From IMG/VR virus record IMGVR_UViG_3300027640_000001: a stretch of 35,852 nt of DNA; one strand, written 5' to 3'. Each line of letters opens with the position of its first letter. The stretch's first letter is position 1. This DNA comes from a virus. The translations under genes were made by a program, and so were the position numbers. This document shows, piece by piece, positions 1 to 35,852 of the stretch. A model generated the notes under the pieces. It made no database searches. It saw only the letters and a program-made list of their open reading frames with translations, and was not told the origin of the DNA.

Positions 1-127
1 CGCTGGGGTCGATCTTCAGCTGAATGCTCGCGGTGCTGCTCACCAGGATGTTGAGGCGCACCACCTGAGTTCGGCCGCTGCCCTGGGCGAGCTCCGGTTT
101 ATAAGTCGGCGGGCAGTTGGCCACCGC
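1..127. repeat. Terminal direct repeat, copy 1 (identical to 35726..35852)
   Basis: Read base by base: cgctggggtcgatcttcagc...gggcagttggccaccgc occurs at both ends. Confidence 0.97.
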
Positions 128-9814: not shown

Positions 9815-9861
9815 GGGCGCGGCGCTAACGGGCCTCACGCGTGCGCGACACCATCTGCGCC

Positions 9862-11625
9862 ATGAATGCAGCCACCGAACTCCCCGCCCAACGTGATAAC
9901 CGCCGCCAGGCCAAGTTTTTGTACTGGACGGGTTGGCGTATCACCGATATCGCCGACTACCTGGACGAGAAGGAAAAGACCGTCCACAGCTGGAAGGCGC
10001 GGGACGATTGGGACCGGGCGGATAATGTGGAGCGGATCGGCGGTGCGCTGGAAGCCCGCCTGGTTCAGCTGATCCTGAAGGACGGCAAGAGCGGCGGTGA
10101 TTTCAAGGAAATCGACCTGCTGCACCGCCAGCTGGAGCGGCAGGCGCGAATCGAGCGGTTCAAGGGCGGCGGTACCGAGGCAGAACTCAATCCGAATCTG
10201 GATAAGCGCAACGCCGGGCCGAAGGCGAAGCCCAAGCGCAACGAGTTCGCCGAGGAACATATCGAGCAGCTCGAGGAGGCCTTCCGGGATGGCTGTTTCG
10301 GCTATCAGCTGGACTGGTACCGGGCGGGCAACCAGCGGACCCGCGCGATTCTGAAGTCACGCCAGATCGGCGCCACGTACTACTTCGCTCGCGAGGCGCT
10401 GCTCGATGCGCTTGTGACGGGGCGTAATCAGATCTTCCTGTCCGCTTCGAAGAATCAGGCGCACATTTTCAAGGCGTATATCCAGGCGTTCGCCCGCGAG
10501 GTGTGCCAGGTCGAGCTGACCGGCGACCCGATCATTCTGGCCAACGGCGCCGAGCTGCACTTCCTCGGGACCAACGCGCGCACGGCGCAGGGCTACCACG
10601 GCAACTTCTACTTCGACGAATTCTTCTGGACCTTCAAGTTCAACGAGCTGAACAAGGTCGCCAGCGGCATGGCGATGCAAAAGCAGTATCGCCGCACCTA
10701 TTTCTCCACGCCCTCCTCGATGGCCCACGAGGCCTACACGTTCTGGACCGGTGAGCGATTTAACAAGGGCAAACCGGCGGCGCAGCGGATCCAGCTGGAT
10801 GTTTCCCACGATGCCCTGCAGCAGGGTCGGCTGTGCGAGGACCGGATCTGGCGGCAGATCGTAACCATTTTGGATGCCGAGGCGCGCGGCTGCGATCTGT
10901 TCGACATCGAGGAGTTGCGCCAGGAGTACAGCGCCGAGGCGTACGCGAACTTGTTGATGTGTCAGTTCGTCGATGACGGCGCCTCGATCTTCCCGCTCAA
11001 CATGCTGCAGCCCTGCATGGTGGACAGCTGGATCGAGTGGAACGAGGACTACAAGCCGTTCGCCGATCGGCCGTTCGGCGATCGCCAGGTGTGGGTGGGT
11101 TATGACCCGGCCGAAACCGGCGATAGCGCCGGCCTGGTGGTGGTGGCGCCGCCGCTGGTACCAGGCGGCAAATTCCGCGTGCTCGAGCGGCATCAGTTCC
11201 GCGGCATGGACTTCGCCGCCCAAGCCGAGGCGATCCGCCGGGTGACGCTGCGCTATTGGGTGACCTACATCGGCATCGACATGACCGGCATGGGATCGGG
11301 CGTGGCGCAGCTGGTGAAGCAGTTCTTTCCGAACCTGACCACCTTCAGCTACTCGCCGGAAGTGAAAACCCGCCTGGTGTTGAAGGCTTACGACGTGATC
11401 CACAAGGGCCGGCTGGAATTCGACGCCGGCTGGACGGACCTCGCTTCCTCACTGATGGCCATCCGCAAGACCACCACGGCCAGCGGCCGGCAGATGACCT
11501 ATACCGCCGGGCGCACCGATGACACCGGCCACGCCGACCTGGCCTGGGCGCTGTTCCATGCCCTGCACAACGAGCCGCTCGAGGGCATGACCGCCCAGAA
11601 CACCAGCTTTATGGAGATTTACTGA
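9862..11625 (+). CDS. gpP: Terminase large (ATPase) subunit gpP-like
   Basis: RRQAKFLYWTGWRITDIADYL...HSWKARDDWD is a P2 gpP-like N-terminus. The ATG at 9862 is preferred over the GTG at 9841. Confidence 0.9.
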   Translation: MNAATELPAQRDNRRQAKFLYWTGWRITDIADYLDEKEKTVHSWKARDDWDRADNVERIGGALEARLVQLILKDGKSGGDFKEIDLLHRQLERQARIERFKGGGTEAELNPNLDKRNAGPKAKPKRNEFAEEHIEQLEEAFRDGCFGYQLDWYRAGNQRTRAILKSRQIGATYYFAREALLDALVTGRNQIFLSASKNQAHIFKAYIQAFAREVCQVELTGDPIILANGAELHFLGTNARTAQGYHGNFYFDEFFWTFKFNELNKVASGMAMQKQYRRTYFSTPSSMAHEAYTFWTGERFNKGKPAAQRIQLDVSHDALQQGRLCEDRIWRQIVTILDAEARGCDLFDIEELRQEYSAEAYANLLMCQFVDDGASIFPLNMLQPCMVDSWIEWNEDYKPFADRPFGDRQVWVGYDPAETGDSAGLVVVAPPLVPGGKFRVLERHQFRGMDFAAQAEAIRRVTLRYWVTYIGIDMTGMGSGVAQLVKQFFPNLTTFSYSPEVKTRLVLKAYDVIHKGRLEFDAGWTDLASSLMAIRKTTTASGRQMTYTAGRTDDTGHADLAWALFHALHNEPLEGMTAQNTSFMEIY

Positions 11626-12626
11626 TGACTAGCAACATTGCCGCCGCACCTGCCCCGGGCATAGAGGCTTTCACATTCGGCGATCCGATGCCGGTACTCG
11701 ATGGGCGAGAGCTGCTCGATTATCTGGAGTGCTGGCTGAATGGTCGTTGGTACGAACCGCCGCTGTCGCTGGATGGGCTGGCGAAGTCGACCAGGGCGAG
11801 CGTGTTCCTGCAGTCGGGGCTCAACTTCAAGCGCAACATGCTCGAGCGGACCTTCATTCCGCACAAGCTGCTGAGCCGGCAAGCGTTCGGCCAGTTCGCC
11901 CTGGACTGGCTGTGGTGTGGCAATGCGTACCTGGAGCGGCGGCAGAACATGCTCGGCCAAGCGCTGAGCCTGCAGCCAACGCTGGCCAAGTACATGCGGC
12001 GCGGGGCTGACCTTGAGACCTACTACCAGGTGCGCGGCTGGCAGGACGAACACGAATTTGCAGCGGGCACCATCTGCCATCTGCGCGAGGCGGATATTAA
12101 CCAGGAGGTGTACGGGTTGCCGGAATGGTTGTCCGCGCTGCAATCGGCGCTGCTGAACGAGTCAGCCACCCTCTTCCGCCGTCGCTACTACCAGAACGGG
12201 TCCCACGCCGGATTCATTATGTACATGACCGACGCGGCGCAGAAGGAAGAAGACGTCGACGCCCTGCGCACCGCGCTGAAGTCAGCTAAGGGGCCGGGCA
12301 ACTTCCGCAACCTGTTCATGTACGCACCTGGTGGCAAGAAGGACGGCATCCAGCTGCTGCCGGTGAGCGAGGTGGCGGCGAAGGATGAGTTCGGTTCGAT
12401 CAAGAACATCAGCCGCGATGATCTACTCGCCGCGCTGCGAATCCCGCCACAGCTGATGGGCATCGTGCCGCAGAACGCCGGGGGGTTTGGTTCGCTGCGC
12501 GAGGCCGCCGAGGTGTGGGCGGTCAACGAGCTCGAGCCGATCCAGGCAAGGCTGGCTCAGGTGAATGAGTGGGTTGGGGATGAGGTGGTTCGCTTCCGGC
12601 CGTTTGAGTTGCCAGAACGAGTATGA
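11625..12626 (+). CDS. gpQ: Portal protein gpQ-like
   Basis: 333 aa. Its start overlaps the P stop (TGATG). The P-then-Q order matches P2. Confidence 0.9.
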   Translation: MTSNIAAAPAPGIEAFTFGDPMPVLDGRELLDYLECWLNGRWYEPPLSLDGLAKSTRASVFLQSGLNFKRNMLERTFIPHKLLSRQAFGQFALDWLWCGNAYLERRQNMLGQALSLQPTLAKYMRRGADLETYYQVRGWQDEHEFAAGTICHLREADINQEVYGLPEWLSALQSALLNESATLFRRRYYQNGSHAGFIMYMTDAAQKEEDVDALRTALKSAKGPGNFRNLFMYAPGGKKDGIQLLPVSEVAAKDEFGSIKNISRDDLLAALRIPPQLMGIVPQNAGGFGSLREAAEVWAVNELEPIQARLAQVNEWVGDEVVRFRPFELPERV

Positions 12627-12716
12627 ACGCTGCATGCGGTAAGCGTACTAACTGCCGGGATCAGAACACCAAAGCGTTGCAGGTCCTCGGTGAGCTCGAG
12701 AACGCAACGAAAACGC

Positions 12717-13331
12717 TCACAGATTCAGTATGTCTTTCATGTCGCTATCAAGTTTGGAGTAGTGATGAGTCCATTCGAGTAGGTCCAAAACGTCCTTCGC
12801 CAGAGACTGATGGGGCTCTTTCATCACGAATCGTTCTGGATTCTGCTGATTCAGTGTTTGAAACGTTTCAACCCAGGTACTGCGATCACGACCTCTGATA
12901 ACTTTCCCCCTCTCGTTCAGTTCAGGTTCGAGGCGAGTCTCTTCGTAGTGCATAGCTTGATTTCGGCCGTGCCAAATCAAATCTCTGATGCATGTGCCGG
13001 ATAGCTCCCTACCTTCTGGGCCGTTTGTTCGATCTCGGTAACGCATTGAAAGCGCCTGCTTAGCAATCTGAAGTATTGCTCCAGCTGCCACGCCGATCAG
13101 AAGCTCGCCTGTAGCAAGACCATTTTCGTTTGCGCGGAGCTTCATCCGTACACGATCTAATCCCTCGGCGTAAGCGTCAGGCACCCCGTCAAACAGAGCT
13201 AGCGTCTCTTCGTTTGCGCGACGAGATACCTCCAGCGCTTCCTGCGCGATTATCTGCAGATTTATCGAGCTATGTAGCTGCAGGAGCATCCCTTGGGCAC
13301 GATTGTAAAAAGCAGTCGCTTGCTCACTCAT
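12717..13331 (-). CDS. Low-GC moron: 204-aa helical protein with an RNxxxH (HEPN-type) motif
   Basis: The clean ORF is convergent with Q. A hand count of line 12721-12780 gives 40% GC. The motif is IWHGRNQAMHYEE (R123...H128). Confidence 0.7.
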   Translation of the reverse strand: MSEQATAFYNRAQGMLLQLHSSINLQIIAQEALEVSRRANEETLALFDGVPDAYAEGLDRVRMKLRANENGLATGELLIGVAAGAILQIAKQALSMRYRDRTNGPEGRELSGTCIRDLIWHGRNQAMHYEETRLEPELNERGKVIRGRDRSTWVETFQTLNQQNPERFVMKEPHQSLAKDVLDLLEWTHHYSKLDSDMKDILNL

Positions 13332-13520
13332 GATCGCTTGCTCGGTGATTGATTGTTCATGTCATCGGCTACCACTTCAACACACTGAGGGGACCCGGTG
13401 CGATGTACAGCCTACCCCGTAGGTCTAGCACGCTTCGGAGAAAGCGCCACCCGGCGCGCGCCGTTGTCCCCCCACCTCACCTGCGGGCTAAAGAGGTCTC
13501 TTTTTCTGCGCCCCTGCACC

Positions 13521-13539: not shown

Positions 13540-13650
13540 GCTGCCGCTGGTGAGGTGATCGGCACTTAAGGAATACCTGCGGAACCCTGCGAAGGTGCGC
13601 CTCCTCCATGAGCTCCTGCGAGCTCAGATTTCTAAACCAATTCTGCAAAC

Positions 13651-13926
13651 GGGTAATTTTGGTAAGGAGGCGTTTTTACCCGGCTGGAAGCCCCGCATTT
13701 GCTGGGCTGTGGCACTTACCTCGAAAGGTAATTTTGGGTAAGGCAAAAGGTAATTTTTTTGCAAGTAACTGATTTACAAAGGATTCGTAAATCGATCACC
13801 TAACCAGCGCTAGAGGTAAGTTGCTTACCTACTTATTACCCAATTATTACCTTTGAGAAGATCGGTTAAGTCGTTGATAGAGAAGGACTTTCAGGCGTTT
13901 CCGGAACGACCTTACCAAAATTACCC
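13651..13926. repeat. AT-rich cluster of GGTAA/TTACC repeats (candidate integrase arm-type sites)
   Basis: The 17-bp perfect inverted repeat gggtaattttggtaagg (13651-13667) / ccttaccaaaattaccc (13910-13926). Related copies lie at 13726-13743 and 13748-13760. There is a palindrome AGGTAAG-TTG-CTTACCT at 13814-13830, and TTATTACC occurs twice (13833, 13844). Confidence 0.6.
13867..13879 (-). promoter_or_regulatory. IHF-consensus match (WATCAANNNNTTR)
   Basis: The minus strand reads tATCAAcgacTTA, inside the arm-repeat region. Confidence 0.4.
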
Positions 13927-14050
13927 ATTTTTTTGGGGTCAGGCGAAATCGCGGGCTTTGCCTCTGGGGCGGGTTTTTCTTCCTGCCGCACTCGCTCTGT
14001 TGGGACCATTCTGGGACCGCTCATACAGCCGTTTCCGCACCCTAGAAACG

Positions 14051-14079
14051 CTGAAGGCCCCGGAATACGGGGCCTTCAG
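14051..14079. other. Perfect 11-bp stem hairpin next to the attP core
   Basis: CTGAAGGCCCC-ggaatac-GGGGCCTTCAG. Confidence 0.5.
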
Positions 14080-14088
14080 TTCGCGATA

Positions 14089-14111
14089 TGGCGGAGGAGG
14101 TGAGATTCGAA
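14089..14111 (-). other. attP core candidate: the 3' end of a tRNA (Ser-like), not a complete tRNA gene
   Basis: The minus strand reads TTCGAATCTCACCTCCTCCGCCA. This gives a T-loop, a T-stem 3' half, a 7-nt acceptor strand, discriminator G and CCA. The expected 5' half of the T-stem is degenerate (ttgat). TGGGACC repeats flank it at 14001, 14012 and 14174. Confidence 0.6.
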
Positions 14112-14210
14112 ATCAACGCCCGCCCGCCTGGAGCACGCATGGTTGCTGGCTTGGTGATGGATTTTCATTCGAGTGGGACCGTCTTGGGGCCAGGCTGGGG
14201 CCGGGCAGGC

Positions 14211-14237
14211 AAGAAAAAGCCCCGTCCTGCGGGGCTT
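14211..14237 (-). terminator. Rho-independent terminator downstream of int
   Basis: On the minus strand, AAGCCCCG-caggA-CGGGGCTT is followed by TTTTTCTT. Confidence 0.7.
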
Positions 14238-14264: not shown

Positions 14265-15434
14265 TTAGAGGTTGAGCTGGCGCTCTACCAGGGCGGTCAT
14301 GTCGGCGGCGTCGTTGCGGATCCACTTGCCGTAGTGCTGGTGGATCATGGCGGTCGAGGTATGCCCCATCTGTTCGGCGATCCAATCCAGCGGCACCACC
14401 CCGCTGGTGAGCATCTGGCTGGCGAAGGTGTGCCGGGAATGGTTCGGCCCTCGGTGACGTACCTTTGCTGCTTTCAGGTGCGCATTCCACCAGCCGTTGC
14501 GCAGATTATCGGCGGTCGCATAGCCCCCATCGGTATGCGAGTTATGGAACACGAACCGCACGTTCTGCTTGCGCACCGTGCGGTTGTCCCGATCGGTGAC
14601 CTCGATCTCCACCGCTGGCATTTTTTCCGTTCGCTCCGCTTGCGCACGTAGTGCTTCAAGAGCGGGCTTCAATAACTTCAGCCGCCGAGTTGAGCGCCTC
14701 GTCTTGGTCACCTTGTACGCGCTGCGCACCCGCGCGCGCTTGAACGTGACCTCGCCCCGCTCCAGGTCAACATCCTCCCAGGCCAGCGCGATCGCCTCGC
14801 TCACCCGCGGGCCTGCCCAGATCATGAACTGAACCAGGGCCAGCTCCTGCTCCCGACCGGGCGAAGGCGTGTTCAGGATGGCGTCAATCTCGGCCCGCTC
14901 GAACGGGTCCGGATCCTGGCTATCGGGCAGCCTGATCACGATGCCTTCCGTAGGATCGAACGCCACCTTGTTGCTCGTGCGGTACAGCTGGAAGATCTGC
15001 CGAACAATGGCGACGATTTCCCTCACCGTCTTGTTGTGCAGCTTGGGCATCAGCTTCTTCTGCACCCAGCCCTGCATTTCAACGAAGCTGATGTCCTCGG
15101 CCTGCCGCTGCCCCCACTGCGGTCGGATGTGGTTCTCGATGCGGCTCTCGTGGCTATCGATCGAGGACTTGGAAAGCTCGTTACGCTTGATATCCAGCCA
15201 GAGGTCGATCCAGTGACCGAAGTTGCTCTCCTTCACGTGGGGCGAATCAGGAAAGTAACGCGCATAGTTGAACGTGCCCGCCTGGATCTCATGCTTGATG
15301 ATCGAAACCAGCCGCTCTGCCTTCTCGATATTCCCCGGCGTCGGTGCCCCGGGAAACGGCTCCTTATGGCGCCTGCCCTCGTATCGAAAATCTAACCGCA
15401 GCGAGTTGCCGCGAATTTCTACTCCATTTGCCAT
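14265..15434 (-). CDS. int: Tyrosine integrase
   Basis: ATG at 15434 (MANGVEIRGNSLRLDFRYEG...). The C-terminal region HSRHTFASQML...GHTSTAMIHQHYGKW carries the R-H-R-Y type catalytic signature. Confidence 0.9.
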   Translation of the reverse strand: MANGVEIRGNSLRLDFRYEGRRHKEPFPGAPTPGNIEKAERLVSIIKHEIQAGTFNYARYFPDSPHVKESNFGHWIDLWLDIKRNELSKSSIDSHESRIENHIRPQWGQRQAEDISFVEMQGWVQKKLMPKLHNKTVREIVAIVRQIFQLYRTSNKVAFDPTEGIVIRLPDSQDPDPFERAEIDAILNTPSPGREQELALVQFMIWAGPRVSEAIALAWEDVDLERGEVTFKRARVRSAYKVTKTRRSTRRLKLLKPALEALRAQAERTEKMPAVEIEVTDRDNRTVRKQNVRFVFHNSHTDGGYATADNLRNGWWNAHLKAAKVRHRGPNHSRHTFASQMLTSGVVPLDWIAEQMGHTSTAMIHQHYGKWIRNDAADMTALVERQLNL

Positions 15435-15534
15435 TTGCGTCCCCACGCTATCGGTGAAGGGGCACTGTACGAGCGCCCCACAGCCAGCAACAGAAAAGGC
15501 CCGTTGCCGGGCCAAGAATCTGCTGGGTTGATTT

Positions 15535-35072: not shown

Positions 35073-35852
35073 TTAATTGCCTATAGCAACGATGCGAGCG
35101 CCAACCGAGTTTGTACCGGCCTTGACCATGGCCGCGCCTCCAGCGGCGTTGAATCCGCTCCAAGTTACCCCTGTCGCCGTATAGGCGTTGATTACGGCAA
35201 TCGCTTGAACTTCGGTGCTATTCGTTTGCGTAGTCACCTGAACGCTCCTGACAACGCCCGGAAACGCTATCGGAAATAGCACATCTTGCGTGCCGTCGGC
35301 TTCTGAAAGTGAGTAAACCCACTGGATGATTAGACCACCCAGCCAGAACGGGAACGCGATGTAACCGGCGGCCGAGCTACCGAGGCTTATCGCAAAGCCC
35401 ATGCGCAGCTTTTTCGGCGTCACAATGGTCGCGTCATCCGTGCCAGCTTCTGTCTCCGCTTGGGTGGCGACTTTGGCAATGCCTAGCACCGTCTCGGTGG
35501 CTTGCACGACTTTTTTCGCGATCGCCTGAAACACCCGCAGCGGCGTCATGGTGGTGTCGTTATCAGTTCCCGCTTCGGCCTGCAGCTGCGTCGAGAATCG
35601 CTTGGTAATGGCCTGCCAGACACGAAGCGGCGTCATAATCTTGGTGTTTTCGGTGCCCGCCTCGGCCTCGGCCTGGCCGGCGCGCACGGTGAGGTCATCG
35701 ACATATTTGCGTGTCGCCAGCACCACGCTGGGGTCGATCTTCAGCTGAATGCTCGCGGTGCTGCTCACCAGGATGTTGAGGCGCACCACCTGAGTTCGGC
35801 CGCTGCCCTGGGCGAGCTCCGGTTTATAAGTCGGCGGGCAGTTGGCCACCGC
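35073..35852 (-). CDS. gpH: Tail fibre protein (gpH-like), 3' part of the junction-spanning gene
   Basis: The frame is continuous with 1..439. The apparent M at 35849 is an internal GTG (Val) codon. Confidence 0.85.
   Translation of the reverse strand, partial: AVANCPPTYKPELAQGSGRTQVVRLNILVSSTASIQLKIDPSVVLATRKYVDDLTVRAGQAEAEAGTENTKIMTPLRVWQAITKRFSTQLQAEAGTDNDTTMTPLRVFQAIAKKVVQATETVLGIAKVATQAETEAGTDDATIVTPKKLRMGFAISLGSSAAGYIAFPFWLGGLIIQWVYSLSEADGTQDVLFPIAFPGVVRSVQVTTQTNSTEVQAIAVINAYTATGVTWSGFNAAGGAAMVKAGTNSVGARIVAIGN
35394..35678 (-). repeat. Three tandem copies of the phage tail-fibre repeat within H
   Basis: AEAEAGTENTKIMTPLRVWQAITKRF / LQAEAGTDNDTTMTPLRVFQAIAKKV / TQAETEAGTDDATIVTPKKLRMGFA. 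Confidence 0.8.
35726..35852. repeat. Terminal direct repeat, copy 2 (identical to 1..127)
   Basis: Same 127-nt string as the window start. It lies inside the tail-fibre reading frame and keeps that frame. Confidence 0.97.

What the first reader, a model, noticed from the sequence alone, without database searches (positions are those of the whole stretch)
12717..13331. HEPN-motif protein occupying the ctx moron slot between Q and cos
A 204-aa all-helical-looking ORF at about 40% GC lies convergent to the portal gene. This is where phiCTX carries its cytotoxin gene (published order attP-cos-ctx) and near where P2 carries old/tin. It contains IWHGRNQAMHYEE, an R-N-x3-H match to the Rx4-6H catalytic motif of HEPN RNases found in abortive-infection and toxin modules. 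No partner antitoxin-like ORF is visible next to it. It would therefore be a stand-alone HEPN protein expressed from a prophage.
Basis: partly seen in the sequence, partly recalled or inferred. Interest (0 to 1): 0.7.

Follow-up and report, generated by a model that had tools for sequence, protein, structure and literature searches.

The report
Solo HEPN-like gene in phage hotspot
A phiCTX-like Pseudomonas phage carries, exactly where phiCTX carries its cytotoxin gene, a foreign 204-residue gene from a large unannotated family that has an invariant RNase-type R-N-x3-H motif and usually sits among anti-phage defence genes, so it is a good but unproven candidate for a new single-gene defence nuclease.

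Summary
The ORF is real: 12717-13331, minus strand, 204 aa, six predicted helices. It lies convergent to the portal gene, between Q and a cos-like site, in the same position and orientation as ctx in phiCTX. Its GC content is 51%, not 40%, against 63% for the window.

IWHGRNQAMHYEE is present. R-x4-6-H alone is expected by chance (81% of shuffles). However, R123 and H128 are invariant, and N124, Q125 and E130 nearly so, across 131 homologues that are mostly 20-30% identical to the window protein. The family has at least 437 clusters at 50% identity, is about 205 aa long, spans several phyla, and is absent from Pfam, NCBIfam, PHROGs and PADLOC.

HEPN membership is not demonstrated.
- The only Pfam hits are sub-threshold ones to HEPN-clan models: KEN (E 0.008-0.06), RiboL-PSP and Ymh.
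- hhalign against KEN puts the motif in register but gives P of only about 0.01.
- Foldseek found no HEPN match.
- Predicted helix topology fits HEPN.

No neighbouring gene is conserved. At least seven of eleven non-P2 contexts are defence neighbourhoods, including type I R-M loci as with PrrC.

The most likely role is a latent solo HEPN-like abortive-infection RNase, comparable to HepS. This would be a new variant of a known kind, of moderate interest.

The parts
12717..13331 (-). ORF204: a 204-aa stand-alone protein, identical to Pseudomonas sp. BRH_c35 hypothetical protein VR76_15105. It is a foreign-GC moron.
13107..13331 (-). Codons 1-75: the N-terminal long helical hairpin arm. This is the most variable part of the family (3.4 bits entropy for residues 25-75). 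Its first ~57 codons cannot be aligned at the DNA level with the closest sister phage.
12720..13106 (-). Codons 76-204: the conserved domain. It comprises the C-terminal half of helix 2 with LQIAKQ (Q88, K91, Q92), an insert, helix 3 with the motif, helices 4-6, and invariant W187.
12942..12965 (-). Codons R123-N-Q-A-M-H128-Y-E130: the R-N-x3-H motif. R and H are in 131/131 homologues, N in 130/131, Q in 121/131 (H in the other 10), and E in 120/131 (D in 8).
   Evidence: read directly from the sequence
12627..12716 (.). 90-bp spacer between the convergent stops of Q and ORF204. It corresponds to the terminator region between ctx and Q in phiCTX. No terminator was called here by the consensus scan.
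11625..12626 (+). Portal gene Q (P2/phiCTX type).
9841..11625 (+). Terminase large subunit gene P.
13462..13482 (.). cos-like site, 16/21 identical to the reverse complement of phiCTX cos (AGGCGTGGCGGGGGGACGACT). It lies about 130 bp upstream of the ORF204 start.
   Evidence: a BLAST alignment spans it; sequence
14085..14114 (.). att core: the 3' end of a tRNA-Ser gene, 93% identical to the 30-bp phiCTX attP. In the integrated relative L001, homology to the window ends here, inside a tRNA-Ser(tga) gene.
14265..15515 (-). Tyrosine integrase (Arm-DNA-bind_2 plus Phage_integrase).

Best explanation
ORF204 is a horizontally acquired, single-gene accessory 'moron' in the cos-proximal variable slot of a phiCTX-like (Citexvirus/P2-family) temperate phage. 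It belongs to a large, previously unannotated family of ~205-aa proteins.

The most likely function is a latent, metal-independent HEPN-type endoribonuclease, possibly an anticodon nuclease, that acts as a stand-alone abortive-infection or phage-exclusion protein for the lysogen.

Proposed mechanism (inferred, not shown):
- The protein is made in the lysogen from its own promoter next to cos.
- It oligomerises, so that the R123/N124/H128 motifs at the end of helix 3 of two protomers can form a composite active site. Q88, K91 and Q92 of helix 2 lie nearby.
- It is held inactive until a component of an infecting phage is sensed. The long, hypervariable N-terminal helical hairpin is the candidate sensor or oligomerisation arm.
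- It then cleaves tRNA or mRNA and stops translation.

Shown: the gene, its foreign composition, its slot, the motif's invariance, the lack of any conserved partner, and the defence-rich neighbourhoods.
Inferred: the HEPN fold, RNase activity, latency, the trigger and the defence phenotype.
For: 1. The motif is conserved. R123 and H128 are invariant. N124, Q125 and E130 are nearly invariant in 131 homologues, most of them 20-30% identical to the window protein. Helix 3 is the most conserved segment, at 0.36 bits in the Pseudomonas clade.
2. The polar residue after R, and the motif's position at the end of a helix that follows an alpha-hairpin and an insert, fit the published HEPN description (PMC3710099; models). 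In the 70-204 model the helix breaks exactly at H128.
3. For three independent family consensus sequences, the top Pfam hit is always Ribonuc_2-5A, the KEN HEPN domain of RNase L/Ire1 (E 0.008-0.024). In the two trimmed wide-family consensus sequences the hit extends over profile positions 50/55-98, with the motif in register. The two Pseudomonas-clade consensus sequences match only positions 55-82. HEPN_RiboL-PSP (E 0.058) also hits one trimmed wide-family consensus, and one family member weakly hits Hypoth_Ymh, another HEPN family. The only other sub-threshold hits, DUF3887 and Phage_TTP_17, fall in the N-terminal arm of the full-length consensus.
4. hhalign aligns RDLIWHGRNQAMHYEE with RDLLRAMRNKKHHYRE of IRE1.
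5. UniProt names one member (A0ABT6GFE7) 'HEPN AbiU2-like domain-containing protein'.
6. The slot is a documented defence hotspot of P2-like phages, between gpQ and cos, where P2 carries old/tin (PMC9122126). It is variable in Citexvirus: ctx in phiCTX and BR319a, three unknown proteins in Dobby, and a Panacea-antitoxin module in Sirocco.
7. Contexts of distant members are defence-rich:
   - inside a type I R-M operon between hsdR and hsdM;
   - directly after a type I R-M system on a conjugative element;
   - between Mrr/Ymh-HEPN genes and EcoRI-MTase/GmrSD genes;
   - next to Abi_C;
   - next to TIR proteins;
   - next to an MTase and a RES-Xre module.
   R-M-embedded latent HEPN anticodon nucleases (PrrC, RloC) are an established precedent (PMC3710099).
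8. No neighbour is conserved across 19 loci.
9. A sister phage has P and Q 96-97% identical at the protein level but this protein only 67% identical. The N-terminal arm and the upstream DNA are not alignable. This pattern is typical of fast-evolving or exchanged defence cargo.
10. A solo prophage HEPN Abi with the same R-N-x3-H motif, HepS, has been proven experimentally (PMC13043305).
Against: - No HEPN model reaches significance. The KEN hit scores at most 16.8 bits against a 23.3-bit gathering score. Only 3 of 28 close members, and few of the wider family, hit it individually.
- hhalign against KEN gives Prob 4-13%. hhalign against a Ymh protein gives nothing.
- A profile search of all PDB sequences gives no hit at E<=10 for the domain. 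For the full-length profiles it gives only sub-threshold coiled-coil hits in the arm.
- Foldseek against PDB and BFVD, with a confident full model and with a 70-204 model, found no HEPN structure. The best result was E 0.3-3.9, and Cas13b at probability 0.02 is noise.
- The acidic E-x3-[KR] motif of helix 2 is replaced by Q-x2-K-Q.
- PADLOC and PHROGs have no matching model.
- No promoter or terminator was found by the consensus scan.
- There is no experimental evidence of any kind.
Confidence: 0.5

Rival explanations
1. It is a defence or toxin effector with the same biology (solo, latent, activated on infection), but built on a new alpha-helical fold that is not homologous to HEPN. The R-N-x3-H would then be convergent, or would serve a different chemistry such as nucleotide or phosphate binding, or a DNase or NADase-unrelated activity.
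For: - Foldseek and PDB profile searches find no HEPN relative despite a confident model.
- All HEPN-model hits are sub-threshold and mostly confined to about 27-50 residues around the motif.
- The family has its own extra invariant residues that are not part of the HEPN definition: Q88, Q92, Q125, W187 and D197.
- The defence-island contexts hold regardless of fold.
Against: - RN-x3-H followed by an aromatic and an acidic residue is the commonest catalytic HEPN signature.
- Its predicted placement at the end of helix 3, after a hairpin and an insert, matches HEPN.
- The top Pfam hit for every family consensus sequence, and the only second hit within the conserved domain, are HEPN-clan families.
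- My prior knowledge, not tested here: Foldseek is weak on small all-alpha domains.
Confidence: 0.17
2. It is a phage-benefit gene unrelated to host defence. Candidates are an anti-defence protein, a regulator or RNA-binding factor (a non-catalytic HEPN-like protein such as MtlR), or a lysogenic-conversion factor of another kind occupying a generic moron slot.
For: - The slot also carries non-defence cargo, namely the ctx cytotoxin in phiCTX and BR319a.
- Defence islands also hold anti-defence and regulatory genes.
- No toxicity or defence data exist.
- HEPN domains can be non-catalytic (PMC3710099).
Against: - Non-catalytic HEPN proteins typically lose the R/H motif, whereas here it is invariant.
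- The family is mostly chromosomal or on mobile elements within R-M, TIR and Abi neighbourhoods rather than in phages. Only 11 IMG/VR loci were found, and there was no hit among 50,697 phage records.
- There is no signal peptide or transmembrane segment that would suggest a secreted virulence factor (read directly from the sequence).
Confidence: 0.15
3. It is the toxin of a toxin-antitoxin pair whose antitoxin was missed: a very small ORF, an antisense or repeat RNA, or an antitoxin encoded elsewhere in the phage. Its main role would be addiction or stabilisation of the element.
For: - Many HEPN proteins are TA toxins, for example HepT-MntA and RnlA-RnlB.
- The same slot in phage Sirocco holds a Panacea-antitoxin module.
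- Two small unknown ORFs follow the P. syringae homologue.
Against: - There is no ORF of 40 aa or more beside the gene in the window. The flanks are 90 bp and about 130 bp long.
- There are no tandem repeats or Rfam RNAs adjacent to it.
- No neighbour family is shared across 19 diverse loci, and no MNT gene appears in any Pfam-annotated neighbourhood.
Confidence: 0.08

Closest known systems
HepS ('HEPN Solo'), Gifsy-1 prophage of Salmonella Typhimurium (PMC13043305)
   Same: - It is a small (<250 aa) single-gene protein encoded in an accessory slot of a temperate phage.
- It has an R-N-x3-H motif (R100/N101/H105 against R123/N124/H128 here).
- It has no conserved partner gene, and its homologues are spread across phyla.
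- Proven mechanism: a constitutively made inactive oligomer is opened by a phage structural protein and then cleaves tRNA anticodon loops. This is the working model adopted here.
   Different: - No sequence or Foldseek similarity to any PDB chain was found, so this is not a detectable HepS homologue.
- The host phage type differs (lambdoid against P2/phiCTX-like), as does the slot.
- This family has a ~95-residue N-terminal helical hairpin and the extra invariant residues Q88, Q92, Q125 and W187.
- I could not obtain the HepS sequence for a direct test.
PrrC and RloC, R-M-linked HEPN anticodon nucleases (PMC3710099)
   Same: - These are HEPN-motif RNases embedded in or next to type I restriction-modification loci and kept latent until phage attack.
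- Members of this family sit between hsdR and hsdM and directly after hsdR.
   Different: - PrrC and RloC carry a large N-terminal ABC-ATPase domain. This family is ~205 aa with only a helical hairpin.
- No sequence match was found.
- The window copy has no R-M system beside it.
KEN domain of RNase L / Ire1 (Pfam PF06479, Ribonuc_2-5A)
   Same: - This is the best-scoring known model.
- There is local similarity over about 27-50 residues: RDLIWHGRNQAMHYEE against RDLLRAMRNKKHHYRE.
- R, N and H are the catalytic residues of KEN. Both proteins have an aromatic and then an acidic residue after the H.
   Different: - The hit is below Pfam's threshold (at most 16.8 bits against 23.3), and hhalign gives Prob 4-13%.
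- KEN is eukaryotic, fused to a kinase or pseudokinase, and circularly permuted. The catalytic Tyr upstream of the KEN motif is not conserved here.
- This protein is not a member of the KEN family.
Single-gene lactococcal-type Abi HEPN proteins (AbiD/AbiF = Abi_2, AbiU2, AbiJ, AbiV)
   Same: - They are stand-alone abortive-infection proteins on mobile elements with R-[N/polar]-x3-5-H motifs.
- UniProt labels one family member 'HEPN AbiU2-like'.
   Different: - There is no hit to Pfam Abi_2 or HEPN_AbiU2, or to PADLOC Abi models, even at E<=10.
- The sizes and architectures differ.
ctx of phiCTX, and old/tin of P2 (positional analogues)
   Same: - The genomic position is the same. ORF204 has the same orientation as ctx, convergent to Q, with cos just upstream.
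- The cos-proximal region is the known P2 defence hotspot.
   Different: - They are unrelated in sequence and function. ctx is a pore-forming cytotoxin, Old is an OLD-family nuclease, and Tin targets T-even phage ssDNA-binding protein (the functions are from my prior knowledge).
- ORF204 has no homologue among 50,697 phage records.

Membership tests
HEPN superfamily | R-x4-6-H motif with a polar residue (N/D/H) immediately after R | tested here: met
   R123-N124-Q-A-M-H128 is present. R and H are in 131/131 homologues and N in 130/131. The generic motif alone is expected by chance. The conservation is not.
HEPN superfamily | [quoted passage not shown] | tested here: inconclusive
   The AF2 secondary structure and helix order fit: H1 3-46 and H2 52-98 form a hairpin, the insert is 99-114, H3 is 115-131 with the motif at 123-128, and H4 is 152-163. 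In the truncated model the helix breaks at H128. Coordinates could not be inspected, so the 3-D packing is unverified.
HEPN superfamily | Structural similarity to solved HEPN domains | tested here: not met
HEPN superfamily | Significant sequence or profile match to any HEPN-clan family model | tested here: not met
   Only sub-threshold hits were found: Ribonuc_2-5A at E 0.008-0.062 (at most 16.8 bits against a 23.3 cut-off), HEPN_RiboL-PSP at 0.058, and Hypoth_Ymh at 0.16. hhalign against KEN gave Prob 4-13%. hhalign against Ymh gave Prob 0.5%.
HEPN superfamily | Second conserved motif in helix 2 (acidic residue, E-x3-[KR]) close to the active site | tested here: inconclusive
   Helix 2 carries a nearly invariant Q88-x2-K91-Q92 (129/131, 117/131 and 129/131 respectively). 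This is polar rather than acidic, and its spatial proximity to the motif could not be checked.
HEPN superfamily | Metal-independent endoRNase activity from a composite dimeric active site | not testable with these tools
   This needs biochemistry or a multimer structure prediction.
KEN domain (Pfam PF06479) | Score at or above the Pfam gathering threshold, with the full-length permuted KEN architecture | tested here: not met
   The best score is 16.8 bits against 23.3. The match covers profile positions 50-98 of 127 at most.
HEPN-MNT (HepT-MntA) and other type II TA modules | An adjacent, co-oriented antitoxin gene (MNT or other) conserved across loci | tested here: not met
   There is no flanking ORF in the window. 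No neighbour is shared across 19 loci. No MNT gene appears in 14 Pfam-annotated neighbourhoods.
HepS family | Detectable homology to HepS (STM14_3211; PDB 9OIK) | tested here: inconclusive
   Family profiles hit no PDB chain at E<=10 within the conserved domain, and Foldseek found nothing. I could not confirm that the HepS entry is in the local copies, and I could not obtain its sequence. It is absent from the LT2 Gifsy-1 record, and no supplements are held.
AbiU2-type HEPN (Pfam HEPN_AbiU2; UniProt label on one member) | Match to the HEPN_AbiU2 model | tested here: not met
   The protein that carries the UniProt name (P0267) gives no HEPN_AbiU2 hit at E<=10, and neither do 39 diverse members. 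The name is probably an automatic prediction.
Cargo of the P2-family cos-proximal hotspot | Located between portal gene Q and cos, variable among related phages, and of foreign composition | tested here: met
   Occupants of the slot are ctx (phiCTX, BR319a), unknown proteins (Dobby), a Panacea module (Sirocco), and this family (the window, L001/L017 and L018).

The most novel reading that the evidence does not exclude
The family is a previously unrecognised, widespread class of single-protein immune sensors and effectors. A hypervariable ~95-residue helical hairpin would directly recognise a phage protein and switch on a minimal RNase domain. That domain is either an extremely divergent HEPN or a convergent new fold with an RNQxxH[YFW]E active site. 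The same module would work both as a free-standing phage moron and as a PrrC-like guard wired into type I R-M operons, without the ATPase domain that PrrC and RloC need.
Probability: 0.2. Interest if true: 0.7.

Novelty: new variant of a known kind. Interest (0 to 1): 0.45.

Why it matters
If the prediction holds, it adds a compact (~205 aa) and widely distributed family to the catalogue of anti-phage systems. The family has at least 437 clusters at 50% identity across Proteobacteria, Cyanobacteria, Firmicutes and Bacteroidetes. It is currently invisible to Pfam, NCBIfam, PHROGs and PADLOC.

It would extend the P2 cos-proximal defence hotspot, established in E. coli, to phiCTX-like Pseudomonas phages, where the best-known cargo is a cytotoxin.

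It also offers a simple test case for how solo HEPN-type nucleases are kept latent without an antitoxin. The conserved catalytic helix paired with a hypervariable hairpin arm gives an obvious swap experiment, and the R-M-embedded members allow comparison with PrrC.

It is not a surprise in kind. Solo prophage HEPN Abi proteins such as HepS and R-M-linked HEPN nucleases are already known.

Tried and rejected
**Family and database searches**
- Pfam, NCBIfam, PHROGs and PADLOC scans of the protein, of 28 close homologues, of 131 and 39 diverse homologues, and of family consensus sequences gave no family at threshold.
- PDB sequence searches with three family profiles gave only coiled-coil noise from the N-terminal arm, and nothing for the domain alone.
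- Foldseek of the full model against PDB and BFVD, and of a truncated 70-204 model against PDB, gave no significant match. The truncation was designed to remove coiled-coil hits, but it lowered model confidence (pLDDT 77) and did not help.

**Direct comparisons with known HEPN proteins**
- hhalign against human IRE1 KEN (my recalled sequence was verified as 100% identical to PDB 4z7g) and against a 34-sequence KEN alignment built placed the motif in register, but the result was not significant.
- hhalign against the neighbouring Ymh HEPN protein of L016 gave nothing.
- I tried to fetch HepS for a direct comparison. The LT2 Gifsy-1 record has no ORF with R100/H105, and the paper's supplements are not held.

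**Context searches**
- megablast and tblastn against 50,697 phage records found no homologue of the gene.
With the family consensus sequence it returned only 3 loci because most of the peptide patterns chosen were uninformative. As a result there is no large-scale context statistic.

**Hidden antitoxin or regulatory signals**
- A search for a hidden RNA antitoxin or repeats beside the gene (TRF, repeat finder, Rfam) found nothing adjacent.
- The consensus promoter and terminator scan found nothing relevant. By eye there is only a weak TTGAAG-17-AACAAT (8/12) at 13380-13352, which I do not count as evidence.

**Ideas rejected**
- Membership of the KEN family: below threshold and different architecture.
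- A HEPN-MNT type II TA module: no partner gene.
- A secreted toxin analogous to ctx: no signal peptide, and the family's context is defence islands.
Full report
**1. What is there**

It is identical to the hypothetical protein VR76_15105 of the metagenome-assembled Pseudomonas sp. BRH_c35.

Its GC content is 50.7% and its GC3 is also 50.7%. The whole window is 63.1% GC, and the adjacent terminase and portal genes have GC3 of 85% and 80%.

AlphaFold2 with a 28-sequence alignment gives a confident model (pLDDT 90, pTM 0.83). It consists of six helices: two very long ones forming a hairpin (3-46, 52-98), then 115-131, 152-163, 178-185 and 191-202.

**2. Genomic setting**

The window is a phiCTX-like, P2-family phage. 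P and Q are 79% identical in DNA to phiCTX, and other Citexvirus phages follow closely.

The phiCTX record reads int(+) - attP - cosR/cosL - promoter - ctx(+) - two terminators - Q(-) - P(-). Read in the other direction, the window has P(+), Q(+), ORF204(-), a cos-like 21-mer at 13462-13482 (16/21 identical to phiCTX cos), repeats, a 30-bp att core at 14085-14114 (93% identical to phiCTX attP), and a tyrosine integrase at 14265-15515(-). ORF204 thus sits in exactly the place and orientation of ctx.

The window carries a 127-bp terminal direct repeat. It is therefore a circularised assembly of a 35,725-bp phage genome with an intact attP, not an integrated prophage.

The integrated state is seen in a relative, L001. 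There, homology to the window stops inside a tRNA-Ser(tga) gene, and the ORF204 homologue lies about 740 bp from that junction, at the extreme end of the prophage next to Q.

In E. coli P2-like phages, the cos-proximal region bounded by gpQ is a documented hotspot of anti-phage systems (PMC9122126). It is variable in Citexvirus too:
- ctx in phiCTX and BR319a;
- three unknown proteins in Dobby;
- a SocA/Panacea antitoxin-domain gene plus unknown proteins in Sirocco;
- this family in the window and in two IMG/VR relatives.

**3. The motif and chance**

IWHGRNQAMHYEE is present, and R123-x4-H128 fits R-x4-6-H. On its own that means little. The protein contains three R-x4-6-H matches, shuffles of the sequence average 1.5, and 81% of shuffles have at least one. 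RN-x3-H occurs in 2.9% of shuffles. The real signal is conservation.

**4. The family**

A word-indexed search found 30 homologues, the named ones all Pseudomonas, at 32-100% identity. An exhaustive profile search of 1.84 billion cluster representatives found 437 clusters at E<=1e-3 and 311 at E<=1e-10. Nearly all are about 200-210 aa.

Named members come from Pseudomonas, Burkholderia, Marinobacter, Thalassospira, Methylobacter, Nostoc, Phormidium, Leptolyngbya, Bacillus, Paenibacillus and Bacteroidetes. All are labelled 'hypothetical'.

In a 131-sequence alignment (most members 20-30% identical to the window protein):
- R123, H128 and W187 are invariant.
- N124 is in 130/131.
- Q88 and Q92 are each in 129/131.
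- Q125 is in 121/131, with H in the other 10.
- E130 is in 120/131, with D in 8.
- K91 is K or R in 127/131.
- D197 is in 121/131.

The family signature is LQIAKQ(G)xS ... G-R-x-I-G ... [IV]-I-W-x-[GA]-R-N-Q-[AS]-x-H-[YFW]-E-[ED] ... LLGW.

Helix 3, which carries the motif, is the most conserved segment. The hairpin arm (residues 25-75) is the most variable. The 132-151 loop is largely absent outside the Pseudomonas clade.

**5. Is it HEPN?**

The published definition (PMC3710099) has four elements:
- a four-helix up-down bundle of two hairpins;
- R-x4-6-H at the end of helix 3 or the start of the following loop, with a polar residue after R;
- often a second motif in helix 2.

The motif criteria are met. 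The predicted order of elements fits as well: a hairpin, an insert at 99-114, and helix 3 ending just after the motif. In the truncated model the helix breaks at H128.

Formal homology is not established.
- Pfam gives only sub-threshold hits. Notably, these are to HEPN-clan families.
[quoted passage not shown] It hits 3 of 28 close homologues (best E 0.0056).
  - It is the top hit for all three family consensus sequences (E 0.008-0.024, at most 16.8 bits against a 23.3 cut-off). In the trimmed wide-family consensus the alignment extends to profile positions 50-98.
  - HEPN_RiboL-PSP (0.058) hits one trimmed wide-family consensus, and Hypoth_Ymh (0.16) hits one member.
- hhalign against human IRE1 KEN (sequence verified against PDB 4z7g) and against a 34-sequence KEN alignment puts RDLIWHGRNQAMHYEE on RDLLRAMRNKKHHYRE. 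The statistics are only Prob 4-13%, P 0.002-0.01.
- The domain profile finds nothing among all PDB sequences at E<=10.
- Foldseek finds no HEPN structure with either model.
- UniProt calls one member 'HEPN AbiU2-like domain-containing protein', but Pfam does not reproduce this.
- PADLOC and PHROGs have no model for the family.

My reading is that this is a HEPN-like family that is probably a very divergent HEPN. Membership is unproven.

**6. Stand-alone status and neighbourhoods**

In the window there are 90 bp between the ORF204 and Q stops, and about 130 bp between the ORF204 start and cos. No ORF, tandem repeat or Rfam RNA lies beside the gene.

Across 19 loci, the only neighbours shared are those of closely related elements. 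No partner gene is conserved.

Pfam-annotated neighbourhoods of distant members are strikingly defence-rich:
- In Nostoc the gene lies between hsdR and hsdM-hsdS of a type I R-M operon.
- In Thalassospira it lies directly after hsdM-hsdS-NucS-hsdR-YgjP on a conjugative element.
- One member lies between Mrr/Ymh (HEPN) genes and EcoRI-methylase/GmrSD/SMC-like genes.
- In a Bacteroidetes genome it lies 18 bp upstream of an Abi_C gene, near HsdM and AAA_13.
- Two members lie next to TIR-domain proteins.
- One lies next to an Mrr_N-methyltransferase and a RES-Xre module.
- Others lie at the edges of integrative elements, and one context is uninformative.

Embedding in a type I R-M operon is the hallmark of the HEPN anticodon nucleases PrrC and RloC.

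IMG/VR holds 11 viral loci with relatives. None of 50,697 GenBank phage records has one.

**7. Evolutionary behaviour**

The sister phage L001/L017 has P and Q 96-97% identical in protein, but its ORF204 homologue is only 67% identical. At the DNA level the alignment (86.6%) runs from P through Q into the 3' ~445 nt of ORF204 and then breaks. The first ~57 codons and the upstream region up to cos are not alignable. The variable part is therefore the N-terminal arm plus the promoter region. This is consistent with a fast-evolving or exchanged specificity module joined to a conserved catalytic core.

**8. Mechanism**

The best-supported model (confidence about 0.5) is a latent solo HEPN-type RNase that protects the lysogen by abortive infection or exclusion.

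The nearest experimentally understood analogue is HepS of Gifsy-1. HepS is a constitutively expressed inactive tetramer with buried R100/H105. It is opened by the tail-tip protein of an infecting siphovirus and then cleaves tRNA anticodon loops (PMC13043305).

By analogy, I propose that the hypervariable hairpin arm of ORF204 mediates oligomerisation or trigger sensing. R123, N124 and H128, with Q88, K91 and Q92 nearby, would form the active site across a dimer. All of this is inference.

Rivals are:
- the same biology on a non-HEPN fold (0.17);
- a phage-benefit or non-catalytic role (0.15);
- a TA toxin with an unseen antitoxin (0.08).

**9. Verdict**

The positional interpretation is right. 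The HEPN assignment is plausible but unproven.

The kind of system is known: solo HEPN Abi proteins in a phage hotspot, and R-M-linked HEPN nucleases. The family itself is unannotated, large and distinct. It is best described as a new variant of a known kind, moderately interesting and readily testable.

Noticed in passing
window 1-127 and 35726-35852: There is an exact 127-bp terminal direct repeat. The window is therefore a circularised assembly of a complete ~35,725-bp phiCTX-like phage genome with an intact attP, not an integrated prophage.
   Followed up: partly
window 14085-14114 (att core) and 14265-15515 (int): The 30-bp tRNA-Ser-type att core is 93% identical to phiCTX attP. However, it lies in the opposite orientation relative to int compared with the phiCTX record (the BLAST match is on the minus strand when int is put in the same sense). 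This is unexplained.
   Followed up: partly
window 13647-13930: The att/cos region holds a set of GGTAATTTT-containing repeats. These are direct copies at 13649, 13724 and 13746, an 11-nt tandem at 13825-13851, and a 21-nt inverted pair at 13647-13667 / 13910-13930 that is 95% complementary. There is a second inverted pair at 13545-13561 / 13793-13809. They are probably integrase arm-type, IHF or terminase binding sites like the R1-R6 repeats of phiCTX.
   Followed up: no
window 14051-14079: There is a perfect 12-bp inverted repeat with a 5-nt loop (CTGAAGGCCCCG ... CGGGGCCTTCAG) just beside the att core. It looks like a terminator stem or a recombination-site element. A weak sub-threshold Rfam hit to Xanthomonas sRNA asX2 at 14175-14237 (27.7 bits against 70) is probably noise.
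   Followed up: no
L001 7169-7258 and 8001-8627 (JGI 3300014664): This is an integrated sister prophage. A tRNA-Ser(tga) gene forms the junction, and homology to the window begins inside its 3' end. P and Q are 96-97% identical in protein to the window, but the ORF204 homologue is only 67% identical, and its 5' ~170 nt plus the upstream region cannot be aligned at the DNA level.
   Followed up: partly
L016 6332-6991 and 7001-7588: One family member lies 9 bp downstream of a Hypoth_Ymh (HEPN family, IRNPKAH motif) gene, inside an island with Mrr/NA-iREase, EcoRI methylase, GmrSD and an SMC-like ATPase. This may be a two-HEPN operon. hhalign shows no relationship between the two proteins.
   Followed up: partly
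L036 4548-10818 (Nostoc) and L015 1-7615 (Thalassospira): Family members are embedded in or appended to type I R-M operons: hsdR - gene - hsdM - hsdS in Nostoc, and hsdM - hsdS - NucS-like - hsdR - YgjP-like - gene in Thalassospira. This resembles the PrrC/RloC arrangement.
   Followed up: no
L033 929-1486 and 1917-2336 (phage Sirocco, OR683410.1): In Pseudomonas phage Sirocco, the same slot next to the portal gene holds a SocA/Panacea antitoxin-domain protein (E 5e-24) plus a 139-aa unknown protein. This is probably a PanA-type TA pair and is annotated only as hypothetical.
   Followed up: partly
L002 10913-14389 (P. syringae CP093321.1): About 2.3 kb downstream of the P. syringae homologue, beyond an integrase, lies a 1158-aa PIN-TPR-GreABC protein next to a topoisomerase. 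Two unknown ORFs of ~103 aa directly follow the homologue.
   Followed up: no
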